Origin: Escherichia coli
GTDB taxonomy: Bacteria > Pseudomonadota > Gammaproteobacteria > Enterobacterales > Enterobacteriaceae
Length of the DNA: 64,000 nt
Reading direction: 5' to 3' (one strand)
NCBI RefSeq assembly: GCF_048403405.1
Contig: NZ_CP183129.1
Each line of letters opens with the position of its first letter. The stretch's first letter is position 1. Made by a program: the position numbers. Shown piece by piece: positions 13,944 to 16,900 of the stretch.

Positions 13944-16900
13944 TAATAACGCTACGCCTGTAAGGCGCACTGGCAGTTCCCTCTCCCCTCTGGGGAGAGG
14001 ATTAGGGTGAGGGGCGCAAACCCGCTCCGGGGCCATTAATTACCCTGAATTTGATTATTTACACCACGGTAACAGGAACAACATATGCAGTTTGACTGGA
14101 GTGCCATCTGGCCTGCCATTCCGCTTCTGATTGAAGGTGCCAAAATGACCCTGTGGATCTCGGTCCTCGGTCTGGCTGGCGGCCTGGTGATCGGATTGCT
14201 GGCAGGTTTTGCACGCACCTTCGGTGGTTGGATAGCCAACCACGTCGCGCTGGTCTTTATTGAAGTGATCCGCGGCACACCTATCGTCGTCCAGGTGATG
14301 TTTATCTATTTCGCCCTGCCGATGGCGTTTAACGACTTACGCATCGACCCGTTTACTGCGGCGGTGGTCACCATCATGATCAACTCTGGCGCGTACATTG
14401 CGGAAATCACGCGTGGTGCGGTGCTGTCTATTCACAAAGGTTTTCGTGAAGCAGGACTGGCGCTCGGTCTTTCACGTTGGGAAACCATTCGCTACATCAT
14501 TTTACCGCTGGCACTGCGTCGTATGCTGCCGCCGCTGGGTAACCAGTGGATCATCAGCATTAAAGACACTTCGCTGTTTATTGTTATCGGCGTGGCGGAA
14601 CTGACCCGTCAGGGGCAAGAAATTATTGCCGGTAACTTCCGCGCCCTTGAGATCTGGAGCGCCGTGGCGGTGTTCTATCTGATTATTACCCTGGTGTTGA
14701 GCTTTATTCTGCGTCGTCTGGAAAGAAGGATGAAAATCCTGTGATTGAATTTAAAAACGTCTCCAAGCATTTTGGTCCAACCCAGGTGCTGCACAATATC
14801 GATTTGAACATTGCTCAGGGCGAAGTCGTGGTGATTATCGGGCCATCCGGTTCCGGTAAATCGACCCTGCTGCGCTGCATCAACAAACTGGAAGAAATCA
14901 CCTCCGGCGATCTGATTGTCGATGGCCTGAAGGTTAACGATCCGAAAGTTGACGAGCGCCTGATTCGCCAGGAAGCGGGTATGGTGTTCCAGCAGTTTTA
15001 CCTCTTCCCGCATCTGACAGCGCTGGAAAACGTCATGTTTGGCCCGCTACGCGTGCGTGGCGCGAACAAAGAAGAGGCGGAAAAACTGGCGCGTGAGCTG
15101 CTGGCGAAAGTCGGTCTGGCAGAACGTGCACATCACTACCCTTCCGAACTTTCTGGTGGTCAACAGCAGCGTGTGGCGATCGCGCGCGCGCTGGCGGTGA
15201 AGCCGAAAATGATGCTGTTTGATGAACCGACTTCCGCTCTTGACCCGGAACTGCGCCATGAAGTGCTGAAGGTTATGCAGGATCTGGCAGAAGAAGGCAT
15301 GACGATGGTGATCGTGACCCACGAAATCGGTTTTGCCGAGAAAGTAGCTTCGCGCCTGATCTTTATCGACAAAGGCCGGATTGCGGAAGATGGCGATCCG
15401 CAGGTGTTGATCAAGAACCCACCGAGCCAGCGCTTGCAGGAATTTTTGCAGCACGTCTCTTAACTTCTCAGCCTCCCTTTCCCCCGAAAGGGAGGCACAC
15501 CAGATTCCTCTCATTTAAAATCGCCCCTCCCCCAGCATCTATACTTATCTTTTTGCTCTGTTTTCTCACTGGAGGAGTCATGCGGTGGATCCTGTTCATC
15601 CTCTTCTGCCTGCTGGGCGCACCTGCCCACGCGGTATCCATACCCGGCGTTACAACCACAACGACAACGGACTCAACGACTGAACCGGCCCCGGAACCGG
15701 ATATCGAACAAAAAAAAGCGGCCTATGGCGCACTGGCGGATGTGCTGGATAATGACACCTCGCGTAAAGAGTTGATCGACCAGTTGCGTACCGTCGCCGC
15801 GACGCCCCCTGCGGAACCCGTACCGAAGATCGTGCCGCCGACGCTGGTTGAAGAGCAAACCGTGCTGCAAAAAGTCACCGAAGTCAGCCGCCATTATGGT
15901 GAAGCCCTTTCCGCCCGCTTCGGACAACTTTATCGCAATATCACCGGCTCCCCGCATAAGCCGTTTAATCCACAAACCTTCAGCAATGCGTTGACCCATT
16001 TTTCAATGTTAGCGGTATTAGTGTTTGGTTTTTACTGGCTGATTCGCCTGTGCGCACTTCCGCTGTATCGTAAAATGGGCCAGTGGGCGCGGCAAAAAAA
16101 TCGCGAACGCAGCAACTGGTTGCAGCTTCCGGCGATGATTATCGGGGCGTTTATTATCGACCTGCTGTTACTGGCACTGACATTATTTGTCGGTCAGGTT
16201 TTAAGCGACAACCTGAATGCGGGCAGTCGCACCATCGCTTTCCAACAAAGTTTGTTTCTCAACGCCTTTGCCCTGATTGAATTTTTCAAAGCTGTACTAC
16301 GCCTGATTTTTTGCCCAAATGTGGCGGAGCTGCGCCCGTTCACGATACAGGACGAGAGCGCCCGTTACTGGAGCCGCCGCCTGAGCTGGTTAAGCAGTTT
16401 GATAGGTTATGGCCTGATTGTGGCCGTGCCGATTATCTCTAATCAGGTGAATGTACAAATTGGCGCGCTGGCGAACGTCATCATTATGCTGTGCATGACC
16501 ATCTGGGCGTTGTACCTGATCTTTCGTAATAAAAAAGAGATTACCCAACATTTGCTCAACTTTGCGGAGCATTCGCTGGCCTTTTTCAGCTTGTTTATCC
16601 GCGCCTTTGCGCTGGTGTGGCACTGGCTGGCAAGCGCCTATTTTATCGTGCTGTTTTTCTTTTCGTTGTTCGATCCGGGCAACAGCCTGAAATTTATGAT
16701 GGGTGCAACGGTGCGCAGCCTGGCGATTATTGGTATCGCAGCATTTGTTTCCGGTATGTTTTCCCGCTGGCTGGCGAAAACCATCACCCTCTCGCCACAT
16801 ACTCAGCGTAACTATCCCGAGCTGCAAAAACGGCTGAATGGATGGCTTTCGGCGGCACTGAAAACAGCGCGTATTCTGACAGTCTGCGTGGCGGTAATGC

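What the first reader, a model, noticed from the sequence alone, without database searches (positions are those of the whole stretch)
13950..14035. GC-rich palindromic repeat between glnH and glnP
An 85-bp GC-rich element with hairpins (ccctctcccc/ggggagagg, followed by gggtgagggg...) separates glnH from glnP. It resembles box C/REP-type intergenic repeats and could act as an mRNA stabiliser or partial terminator, giving differential expression of the binding protein versus the membrane components. A similar cctcccttt/aaagggagg hairpin follows glnQ (15472-15495).
Basis: seen in the sequence. Interest (0 to 1): 0.3.

Follow-up and report, generated by a model that had tools for sequence, protein, structure and literature searches.

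The report
BoxC repeat hairpin ending glnH mRNA
The GC-rich element between glnH and glnP is a copy of the known E. coli "BoxC" dispersed repeat, and published RNA 3'-end maps put a strong transcript end 4 nt after its hairpin, so it probably acts as a REP-like stabiliser or attenuator that favours the binding-protein gene; this is a known kind of element.

Summary
Window 13980-14000 is a perfect 9-bp hairpin (CCTCTCCCC/TCT/GGGGAGAGG, -18.3 kcal/mol), followed by ATTA and GGGTGAGGGG.

It is a copy of the E. coli BoxC repeat, also published as PIT and TMECO. It matches the commonest MG1655 copy at 34 of 36 positions. It is not a REP. One G-to-A change makes it fail the strict TMECO pattern, so it is missing from the published list of 23 copies.

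The copy is present in about 99.5% of 5,426 complete E. coli genomes. E. albertii and 78 other Enterobacteriaceae lack it. Every one of those species still has a strong hairpin at the same place: a canonical terminator, a REP-like palindrome or another type.

Published Term-seq data for MG1655 show a strong RNA 3' end 4 nt after the hairpin in all three growth conditions. At least five other BoxC copies show the same. Within E. coli the stems are invariant, while the loop and the triplex arm vary.

Most likely the transcribed hairpin blocks 3' exonucleases, and perhaps attenuates transcription weakly, raising glnH relative to glnPQ.

The hairpin after glnQ is real and also marks a 3' end, but it is single-copy and not BoxC.

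This is a known family with a plausible, untested function, so interest is low to moderate.

The parts
13200..13946 (+). glnH coding sequence (periplasmic glutamine-binding protein), the first gene of glnHPQ
   Evidence: ORF list. The sequence matches annotated glnH in MG1655 and thousands of RefSeq genomes.
13958..14028 (+). BoxC (PIT/TMECO) repeat unit, type A. The classic ~56-bp core is about 13965-14020.
   Evidence: Alignment with 10 MG1655 type-A copies. Conservation extends about 21 nt upstream and about 14 nt downstream of the 36-nt triplex motif. The motif matches the commonest copy at 34/36 positions.
13980..13988 (+). 5' (pyrimidine) arm of the hairpin, CCTCTCCCC
   Evidence: Perfect 9-bp inverted repeat. 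Predicted RNA hairpin of -18.3 kcal/mol. Invariant in all sampled E. coli lineages.
13992..14000 (+). 3' (purine) arm of the hairpin, GGGGAGAGG
14004..14004 (+). Position equivalent to the mapped RNA 3' end of the glnH transcript (MG1655 847200, minus strand), 4 nt after the stem and 58 nt after the glnH stop codon
   Evidence: Term-seq curated 3' ends in PMC7815308 Supplementary file 1: 30,332 reads (LB OD 0.4), 130,459 (LB OD 2.0) and 42,295 (M63). Coordinates were mapped through L001.
14005..14014 (+). Third G-rich block, GGGTGAGGGG, which could form a purine-motif intrastrand DNA triplex with the hairpin (9 perfect triplets)
   Evidence: Triplet-by-triplet check. The block varies among E. 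coli lineages: GGGTGAAGGG, GGGTGA-GGG.
13955..13967 (+). Small upstream hairpin (CGCCT/GTA/AGGCG) that is specific to this strain lineage and absent in MG1655
   Evidence: Fold. MG1655 has ACACCTGTAAAACGC at this place.
14035..14061 (+). A+U-rich, apparently unstructured linker between BoxC and the glnP translation signals. It is a candidate endonuclease entry site (inference only).
   Evidence: Sequence. The MFE fold leaves this stretch mostly unpaired. No cleavage data were examined.
14062..14079 (+). Conserved block CACCACGGTAACAGGAAC, comprising the glnP Shine-Dalgarno sequence and the GlnZ sRNA target just upstream of it
   Evidence: Near-invariant across the Enterobacteriaceae spacers listed. 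GlnZ repression of glnP by pairing just upstream of the SD is reported in the Walling et al. bioRxiv preprint 10.1101/2022.04.01.486790 and in PMC9731577.
14085..15463 (+). glnP (14085-14744) and glnQ (14741-15463), the membrane and ATPase subunits downstream of the element
15471..15496 (+). Operon-distal hairpin GCCTCCCTTTC/CCCC/GAAAGGGAGGC. It is single-copy and not BoxC. Window 15499 corresponds to the Term-seq 3' end at MG1655 845561(-).
   Evidence: Fold: -21.1 kcal/mol, z = -5.4. One place per genome. 3' end in the M63 sheet. Alignment to MG1655.

Best explanation
The element is a fixed copy of the E. coli BoxC dispersed repeat, also published as the PIT element and the TMECO triplex motif.

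At this locus the working part is the 9-bp G+C-rich hairpin, transcribed as part of the glnHPQ mRNA. Transcripts that read into the spacer, glnP or glnQ are cut or terminated further downstream. 3'-to-5' exonucleases then trim them back until the hairpin stops them. This leaves a stable glnH-only mRNA ending at window 14004.

The result is more glnH message, and so more periplasmic binding protein, than glnP/glnQ message. It also uncouples glnH from the GlnZ-sRNA-mediated repression of glnP that acts about 60 nt downstream. A minor contribution from weak, non-canonical transcription attenuation at the hairpin is possible.

Shown: the family identity, the hairpin, the in vivo RNA 3' end, and the conservation pattern. 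Inferred: exonuclease blockage as the cause of the 3' end, and the effect on the GlnH:GlnPQ ratio.

The triplex-forming third block is probably irrelevant here. The stable RNA ends before it, and it is degenerating in large E. coli lineages.
For: 1. Family identity. The element matches MG1655 type-A BoxC/TMECO copies at 34/36 positions, and the conserved flanks also match. It is a dispersed repeat, with a median of 11 BLAST-detectable places per E. coli genome.

2. RNA 3' end. Term-seq places a 3' end exactly 4 nt after the stem in three growth conditions, with 30,000-130,000 reads. No bicyclomycin-sensitive Rho region was found under the coordinate prefixes searched (8469-8472).

3. The same pattern at other copies. 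At least five other BoxC copies have 3' ends 4-5 nt after their hairpins, in either orientation: 164636+, 632098+, 3781065+, 3959467- and 4231270-.

4. No U-tract follows the hairpin (AUUAGGGU). The terminator scan finds nothing on the + strand. This fits the class of U-less protective stem-loops described for exonuclease-trimmed transcripts (PMC6061677).

5. Position under selection. All 81 glnH-glnP spacers from Enterobacteriaceae have a hairpin of -13.7 kcal/mol or stronger (median -20.8). In 93% the variable part folds with z < -2. The hairpins belong to unrelated families: canonical terminator, REP-like, a Klebsiella type, and BoxC only in E. coli and Escherichia sp. E1V33.

6. Within E. 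coli the stems are identical in the four major haplotypes (2337 + 1298 + 999 + 345 genomes). The loop has three variants, and the triplex arm carries a substitution or a deletion in about 1,340 genomes.

7. In Salmonella a GlnZ pulse lowers glnP and glnQ more than 4-fold, and glnH is not among the 12 listed genes. This is consistent with a protected glnH segment.

8. General precedent. Stem-loops after the binding-protein genes of ABC importers set subunit stoichiometry (PMC9045158). REP325 acts as both stabiliser and attenuator (bioRxiv 10.64898/2026.03.23.713779).
Against: No experiment on this copy links the hairpin causally to the 3' end, to glnH mRNA half-life or to protein ratios.

Term-seq reports steady-state ends and cannot tell termination from processing.

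Reporter tests of PIT/BoxC elements found no promoter or terminator activity and no effect on RNA polymerase (Hoyne & Maher 2002, known here only through its summary in PMC4666352). Holder et al. found no association of the family with gene function or operon position.

None of the common type-A copies with a mismatched stem gave a 3' end in the sense orientation. The effect is therefore not universal to the family, or it depends on expression level.

The conservation argument rests on only four major haplotypes. The absence of variable sites in the 18 stem positions is not statistically significant on its own (my estimate from the 8 variable sites is P of about 0.2).

I did not examine RNA-seq coverage across the element.
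Confidence: 0.6

Rival explanations
1. The element is a partial transcription terminator (attenuator). RNA polymerase itself stops at or just after the BoxC hairpin in a fraction of rounds, possibly helped by NusA, NusG or Rho. The 3' end at window 14004 would then be the primary termination product, not a trimmed one.
For: A sharp, strong 3' end lies 4 nt after a stable G+C-rich stem in three conditions. Many other genera carry a canonical terminator (GGGGCG...CGCCCC followed by a T-run) at the same position, so attenuation there is plausibly the ancestral function. Internal terminators with poor U-tracts control ABC importer stoichiometry in Clostridia. REP325 attenuates in a partly Rho-dependent way.
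Against: There is no U-tract: no T in a run, and the tail is AUUAGGGUGAGG. The element fails the terminator scan. PIT/BoxC elements showed no terminator activity in reporter assays according to PMC4666352. No Rho-dependent region was found under the coordinate prefixes searched in the bicyclomycin data. An end at +4 is closer to the stem than the usual +7 to +9 of intrinsic terminators (background knowledge).
Confidence: 0.2
2. The element works at the DNA level as a non-B-DNA motif. The hairpin plus third block forms an intrastrand purine-motif triplex that perturbs replication or recombination and promotes local genome instability. Any RNA 3' end is incidental.
For: Nine perfect triplets can form. 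[quoted passage not shown]
Against: This copy is one of the most stable features of the locus. It is present in 5,401 of 5,421 matching genomes. The one disrupted locus examined is an IS26 deletion. The triplex arm is mutated in about 25% of genomes while the stems are untouched. In vivo DMS footprinting did not detect a triplex, and double-stranded DNA of the motif stays duplex. Purine-motif triplexes do not form in RNA.
Confidence: 0.07
3. The element is a selfish or neutral relic. A BoxC copy landed in, or was gene-converted into, a spacer that tolerates insertions. It persists by descent and has no selected role. The 3' end is a harmless by-product of any stable hairpin in an mRNA.
For: BoxC copies lie in many unrelated intergenic contexts with no functional bias. 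The sequence between the shared flanks was replaced, not added to, relative to E. albertii and strain SCPM-O-B-8794, which is typical of repeat turnover. Loop, flanks and third block drift freely.
Against: Every one of the 81 species examined keeps some strong hairpin at this position, despite complete turnover of sequence family. This is hard to explain without selection for a structure. The copy is near-fixed in E. coli with invariant stems.
Confidence: 0.13

Closest known systems
BoxC repeat (Bergler et al. 1992; Bachellier et al. 1999), also called the PIT element (Hoyne et al. 2000) and the TMECO triplex motif (Holder et al. 2015, PMC4666352)
   Same: The block order is the same: CCCTCNCCCC, a short loop, GGGGAGAGG, TTA, GGGTGAGGGG. 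Identity to the commonest MG1655 type-A copy is 34/36. The conserved flanks match, the location is intergenic, and the family is multi-copy in E. coli.
   Different: Two substitutions. G-to-T at 13984 repairs the stem mismatch found in most type-A copies. G-to-A at 14001 breaks the strict TMECO pattern, so this copy is absent from the published table of 23. Published work assigns the family no role in expression. Here, and at five or more other copies, public Term-seq data show RNA 3' ends at the hairpin.
REP/BIME elements acting as intra-operon mRNA stabilisers or attenuators (malE-malF, Newbury et al. 1987; REP325 in yjdMN, bioRxiv 10.64898/2026.03.23.713779)
   Same: A dispersed palindromic repeat sits after the first gene of an ABC-transporter operon. 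The hairpin is stable and has no U-tract, and an RNA 3' end lies just downstream. The proposed outcome is more upstream than downstream message.
   Different: The sequence family is different: there is no REP consensus and tens, not hundreds, of copies. A real REP pair can be seen for comparison in the MG1655 glnQ-ybiO spacer. REP-like palindromes occupy this same glnH-glnP position in E. albertii, Citrobacter, Enterobacter and Salmonella.
Internal terminators after substrate-binding-protein genes of ABC importers (PMC9045158)
   Same: The position (directly after the binding-protein gene) and the presumed purpose (an excess of binding protein) are the same. Many Enterobacteriaceae have a canonical terminator there.
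   Different: The E. coli element has no U-tract and belongs to a repeat family. Termination has not been demonstrated for it.
Protective 3' stem-loops of Rho-terminated or processed transcripts (Dar & Sorek 2018, PMC6061677)
   Same: A precise steady-state 3' end lies immediately downstream of an energetically stable stem-loop that is not followed by uridines.
   Different: The element lies inside an operon, not at its end. No Rho-dependent region was found near it under the coordinate prefixes searched in the bicyclomycin data.

Membership tests
BoxC repeat | Sequence similarity to the ~56-bp G+C-rich consensus over the core and flanks | tested here: met
   34/36 identity to the commonest MG1655 type-A motif. 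12/21 upstream and 11/19 downstream flank-consensus positions match.
BoxC repeat | Multiple dispersed, intergenic copies in the E. coli chromosome | tested here: met
   Median 11 (range 1-24) BLAST-detectable places per genome in 5,425 genomes. This copy lies between two coding sequences. The literature gives 22-32 copies.
TMECO (Holder 2015) strict motif | Matches CCCTCNCCC-N3-6-GGGNGAGGG-N3-GGGNGAGGG | tested here: not met
   The middle block is GGGAGAGGA (A at 14001). The copy is absent from the 23 listed in Table 1 of PMC4666352. It is therefore a one-mismatch variant, not a strict member.
PIT / intrastrand triplex element | Three consecutive blocks able to form at least 8 contiguous purine-motif triplets (G*G-C, A*A-T, T*A-T) | tested here: met
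   Nine contiguous perfect triplets, 13992-14000 with 13980-13988 and 14006-14014.
PIT / intrastrand triplex element | Actual triplex formation by this sequence | not testable with these tools
   This needs CD/NMR or chemical probing. For other copies a triplex was shown only in single-stranded oligonucleotides, not in vivo.
REP / BIME | REP consensus palindrome (GCCGGATG...CCGGCCTAC type), present in hundreds of copies and often paired | tested here: not met
   No such consensus occurs in 13950-14035. The copy number is tens, not hundreds. Compare the true REP pair in MG1655 and the REP-like hairpins in other genera.
Intrinsic (Rho-independent) terminator | G+C-rich stem-loop immediately followed by a U-rich tract | tested here: not met
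   The stem is present but the tail is ATTAGGGTGA. The scan finds no + strand site here, and there are 0 T in the 8 nt after the extended helix.
Hairpin-type mRNA 3' stabiliser (functional class, REP-like) | An in vivo RNA 3' end mapped a few nt downstream of the stem | tested here: met
   Published Term-seq: 847200(-) in three conditions, 4 nt after the stem.
Hairpin-type mRNA 3' stabiliser (functional class, REP-like) | Hairpin-dependent increase in upstream mRNA half-life or abundance | not testable with these tools
   This requires stem-disrupting and compensatory mutants with decay measurements.
Any Rfam RNA family | Covariance-model match | tested here: not met
   The only hit is a chance-level one (whalefall-1: 15.2 bits against a gathering score of 37, E = 2.3).

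The most novel reading that the evidence does not exclude
BoxC elements are not inert triplex curiosities. They would be a second family of dispersed RNA 3'-end and stability modules in E. coli, alongside REPs. On this reading the glnH-glnP copy was recruited by replacing an ancestral REP-like hairpin at a position where all Enterobacteriaceae need a structure. Selection would then act on the RNA hairpin while the triplex arm decays. That would revise the published view that the family has no role in gene expression.
Probability: 0.4. Interest if true: 0.45.

Novelty: already known. Interest (0 to 1): 0.3.

Why it matters
The element itself is a textbook-era repeat in the best-studied bacterial genome, so the find is not new.

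It does bear on two small open points. First, BoxC/PIT/TMECO repeats have had no accepted function for 30 years. Public 3'-end maps, read against the repeat coordinates, suggest that at least six copies define transcript ends. That is directly testable with stem mutants.

Second, the glnH-glnP junction is a clear example of structural conservation with sequence turnover. Terminator, REP-like palindrome and BoxC are interchangeable at one operon position across Enterobacteriaceae. This supports the idea that dispersed repeats are co-opted as ready-made expression dials for ABC-transporter stoichiometry.

The hairpin also sits just upstream of the GlnZ sRNA target, so it may explain how glnH escapes GlnZ-driven decay of glnPQ.

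Tried and rejected
- **Rfam scan of 12800-15800 at a permissive E-value.** Nothing meaningful was found.
- **Promoter scan of the spacer.** There is no sigma-70-like site, so an internal glnP promoter is not supported.
- **Other copies in the 64-kb window.** None were found, even allowing 3 mismatches. The family was only visible genome-wide.
- **REP membership.** Rejected on sequence and copy number.
- **The glnQ-distal hairpin as a second BoxC copy.** Rejected, because it is single-copy.
- **A clean insertion with target-site duplication.** The alignment to E. albertii and strain SCPM-O-B-8794 shows replacement of about 52 nt by about 97 nt, with no duplicated flank. A possible relic of the old REP 3' arm (CGCTCCGGGGCC against CGCTGACCGGGCC) is too short to count as evidence.
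- **E. coli genomes carrying the REP-type spacer.** None of 5,426 do.
- **The primary PIT papers** (PubMed 12051844 and 10993724) are not held. Their conclusions are cited second-hand.
- **Protein synthesis-rate data and the Dar & Sorek supplement** were not available.
- **Literature searches** for a described glnH terminator, a northern blot or a glnH 3'-UTR sRNA found nothing.
- **A loose regex for extra BoxC copies in the 80 orthologous loci** was badly designed: it missed even the window copy. It is not used as evidence.
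Full report
**Observation**

The window carries the E. coli glnHPQ operon on the + strand: glnH 13200-13946, glnP 14085-14744 and glnQ 14741-15463. dps lies upstream and ybiO downstream. The 138-nt glnH-glnP spacer contains a perfect 9-bp inverted repeat. Its arms are CCTCTCCCC (13980-13988) and GGGGAGAGG (13992-14000), separated by a 3-nt loop. ATTA and GGGTGAGGGG (14005-14014) follow.

As RNA the hairpin is worth -18.3 kcal/mol. The whole glnH 3' tail up to 14004 folds with z = -4.2 against dinucleotide shuffles. Neither motif is expected by chance in the window.

**Identity**

A blastn search of the 106-nt region against 5,426 complete E. coli genomes gave 60,882 places, a median of 11 per genome. 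Almost all are chromosomal. The element is therefore a dispersed repeat.

The block order matches the repeat first called BoxC. It was later re-described as the potential intrastrand triplex (PIT) element, and then as the TMECO triplex motif with consensus CCCTCNCCC-N3-6-GGGNGAGGG-N3-GGGNGAGGG (PMC4666352). BoxC is listed as a 56-bp family with 32 copies in E. coli. An independent profile search detected it as about 50 bp with 22 copies (PMC2267715).

I fetched ten MG1655 type-A copies from the published coordinates and aligned them with the window copy. The window motif differs from the commonest copy at two of 36 positions. G-to-T at 13984 repairs the stem mismatch that most type-A copies carry. 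G-to-A at 14001 removes the outermost pair.

Conservation among copies extends about 21 nt upstream and about 14 nt downstream of the motif. The repeat unit here is therefore roughly 13958-14028. Because of A14001 the copy fails the strict TMECO pattern, and it is not among the 23 copies in Holder's Table 1. It can still form nine perfect purine-motif triplets.

It is not a REP. It has no REP consensus and far too few copies. A genuine REP pair is visible for comparison in the MG1655 glnQ-ybiO spacer. Rfam has no family for it.

**Comparative context**

I retrieved glnH loci from 80 species-level genomes of Enterobacteriaceae and extracted the glnH-glnP spacers, which are 73-166 nt long.

The last ~18 nt before the glnP start region (CACCACGGTAACAGGAAC) are nearly invariant. 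This block holds the Shine-Dalgarno sequence and the experimentally validated target of the GlnZ sRNA, which lies just upstream of the SD.

The 5' part of the spacer has no conserved sequence, yet it always contains a strong hairpin. The best single-hairpin energy is -13.7 kcal/mol or stronger in all 81 spacers, with a median of -20.8. The variable part folds better than its shuffles, with z < -2 in 93% of spacers and a median z of -3.4.

The hairpins belong to different families:
- a canonical terminator (CAGGGGCG...CGCCCCTG plus a T-run) in Lelliottia, Pluralibacter, Kluyvera, Kosakonia and others;
- a REP-like palindrome (GCCCGGTGGCGC...CCGGGCCTAC) in Enterobacter, Citrobacter, Trabulsiella and Salmonella arizonae;
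- a distinct type in Klebsiella;
- BoxC only in the window sequence and in Escherichia sp. E1V33.

E. albertii and a divergent strain labelled E. coli SCPM-O-B-8794 have a REP-like hairpin in a 94-96-nt spacer. The alignment shows replacement of the central segment, not a clean insertion.

None of the 5,426 complete E. coli genomes has the REP-type spacer. The BoxC version is present in 5,401 of 5,421 genomes with a match. The one disrupted locus I examined is an IS26-mediated deletion of glnP.

**Evidence for function**

Supplementary file 1 of Adams et al. 2021 (PMC7815308) lists curated Term-seq 3' ends for MG1655. One is at 847200 on the minus strand, with the context ...CCCTCTCCCCTATGGGGAGAGGATTA|GGGTGAGGGG. 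Read counts are 30,332 (LB OD 0.4), 130,459 (LB OD 2.0) and 42,295 (M63 glucose).

The 51st base of each listed string is the 3' end; I verified this on thrL. Mapped through locus L001, this is window position 14004. That is 4 nt after the stem, 58 nt after the glnH stop, and just before the third block. The end is labelled 'orphan' only because it lies more than 50 nt from the stop codon. No bicyclomycin-sensitive Rho region was found under the coordinate prefixes I searched (8469-8472).

Searching the same table for BoxC sequence found further 3' ends 4-5 nt after BoxC hairpins, in both orientations:
- 164636(+)
- 632098(+)
- 3781065(+)
- 3959467(-)
- 4231270(-)

 The table has 3,110 entries over 9.3 Mb of strand. 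By my rough estimate, about 0.04 such coincidences are expected for roughly 32 copies. The association is therefore real, although any stable hairpin in a transcribed region might behave the same way. No sense-orientation 3' end was found for the common type-A copies with a mismatched stem.

**Mechanism**

The hairpin is followed by AUUAGGGU, not a U-tract, and it fails the terminator scan. PIT elements were reported to lack terminator and promoter activity (Hoyne & Maher 2002, as summarised in PMC4666352). I could not read the primary paper.

Precise steady-state 3' ends immediately after stable, U-less stem-loops are the signature of transcripts trimmed by PNPase and RNase II up to a protective structure (PMC6061677). 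I therefore favour an exonuclease-barrier model. Read-through transcripts would be cut in the A+U-rich linker (14035-14061) or terminated further downstream, then trimmed back to the hairpin. A stable glnH-only mRNA accumulates.

This would raise GlnH relative to GlnPQ. It would also insulate glnH from GlnZ-triggered loss of glnPQ message. In Salmonella a GlnZ pulse lowered glnP and glnQ more than 4-fold, and glnH is not among the listed genes.

The same logic is documented for stem-loops after the binding-protein genes of ABC importers (PMC9045158) and for REP325. True attenuation at the hairpin remains a serious rival, because many genera have a real terminator at this position.

**Hairpin versus triplex**

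I sampled seven E. coli lineages plus Escherichia sp. E1V33.
- Both stem arms are invariant.
- The loop has three forms: TCT, TAT and GCC.
- The third block has four forms: GGGTGAGGGG, GGGTGAAGGG, GGGTGA-GGG and GGGTGAGGAG.

Haplotype counts over the 79-nt core are given below. They count records in the >=99% identity band, that is, at most a near-identical match.

| Haplotype | Genomes |
|---|---|
| MG1655 type | 2,337 |
| Window type | 1,298 |
| GCC/GGGTGAAGGG type | 999 |
| O157 deletion type | 345 |

 About a quarter of E. coli genomes therefore carry a damaged triplex arm with an intact hairpin. Three further points argue that any selected function lies in the hairpin and not the triplex. 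The stable RNA ends before the third block. Purine-motif triplexes do not form in RNA. No triplex was detected in vivo. The sample of independent changes is small, and the pattern is not statistically significant on its own.

**The second hairpin**

GCCTCCCTTTC/CCCC/GAAAGGGAGGC (15471-15496) is real, with -21.1 kcal/mol and z = -5.4. It corresponds to a Term-seq 3' end at MG1655 845561(-) in M63, 3-4 nt after the stem. It occurs once per genome and is unrelated to BoxC. It is best read as the 3' structure at the distal end of the operon.

**Verdict**

'Box C' is correct and 'REP-type' is not. The proposed role as a stabiliser or partial terminator is supported by public RNA 3'-end data and by comparative structure conservation, but it has not been tested experimentally.

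The element is a known repeat in a well-studied genome, so novelty is low. One point may deserve a small follow-up: BoxC hairpins coincide with transcript ends, contrary to the published 'no role in expression' view, and this operon position shows turnover between terminator, REP-like and BoxC hairpins.

Noticed in passing
window 15464-15470, compared with L001 1982-2241 (MG1655 glnQ-ybiO spacer): MG1655 has an extra ~145 bp containing a pair of REP elements (a BIME) inserted right after the glnQ stop codon, upstream of the distal hairpin. The window strain lacks it, so this is a REP presence/absence polymorphism within E. coli.
   Followed up: partly
window 14062-14079: The 18-nt block CACCACGGTAACAGGAAC before the glnP start is almost invariant across 80 Enterobacteriaceae species, while the rest of the spacer turns over completely. 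It coincides with the published GlnZ sRNA target plus the Shine-Dalgarno sequence.
   Followed up: partly
L092 (E. coli FORC_042, NZ_CP025318.1 3380935-3381727): An IS26 copy replaces the end of glnH, the whole spacer and glnP, leaving glnH fused to IS26 and glnQ orphaned. This looks like a natural glutamine-transporter knockout.
   Followed up: no
window ~13147 (MG1655 848057, minus strand): Term-seq also lists a 3' end 53 nt upstream of the glnH start codon, in the LB OD 2.0 data. It lies inside the glnH promoter/5' UTR region (...CTGGCACGATTTTTTCATATATG). Its origin is unexplained; premature termination from the upstream promoter is one possibility.
   Followed up: no
L008 1096-1130 (MG1655 3908495-3908530, between pstA and pstB): Another BoxC copy sits inside a second ABC-transporter operon (pstSCAB-phoU). 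It lies between the two membrane/ATPase genes and in the opposite orientation relative to the mRNA. My sequence searches of the table found no Term-seq 3' end for it.
   Followed up: partly
window 13536-14036, minus strand: A 166-aa antisense ORF runs through glnH and the BoxC element (it begins MAPERVCAPHPNPLPRGERELP...). It is almost certainly spurious. BoxC sequences translate into such PLPxGER-like strings, which could seed false gene calls.
   Followed up: no
window 13955-13967: A small hairpin (CGCCT/GTA/AGGCG) directly after the glnH stop codons exists in this strain but not in MG1655 (ACACCTGTAAAACGC). Three substitutions lie within 15 nt, which makes this a local hot spot of variation next to the repeat.
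   Followed up: partly
window 12834-12869: A weak Rfam hit to ctRNA_p42d (26.9 bits against a gathering score of 50, E = 0.006) lies just downstream of dps. It probably reflects only the dps terminator hairpin, which is a strong Term-seq 3' end at MG1655 848340.
   Followed up: no
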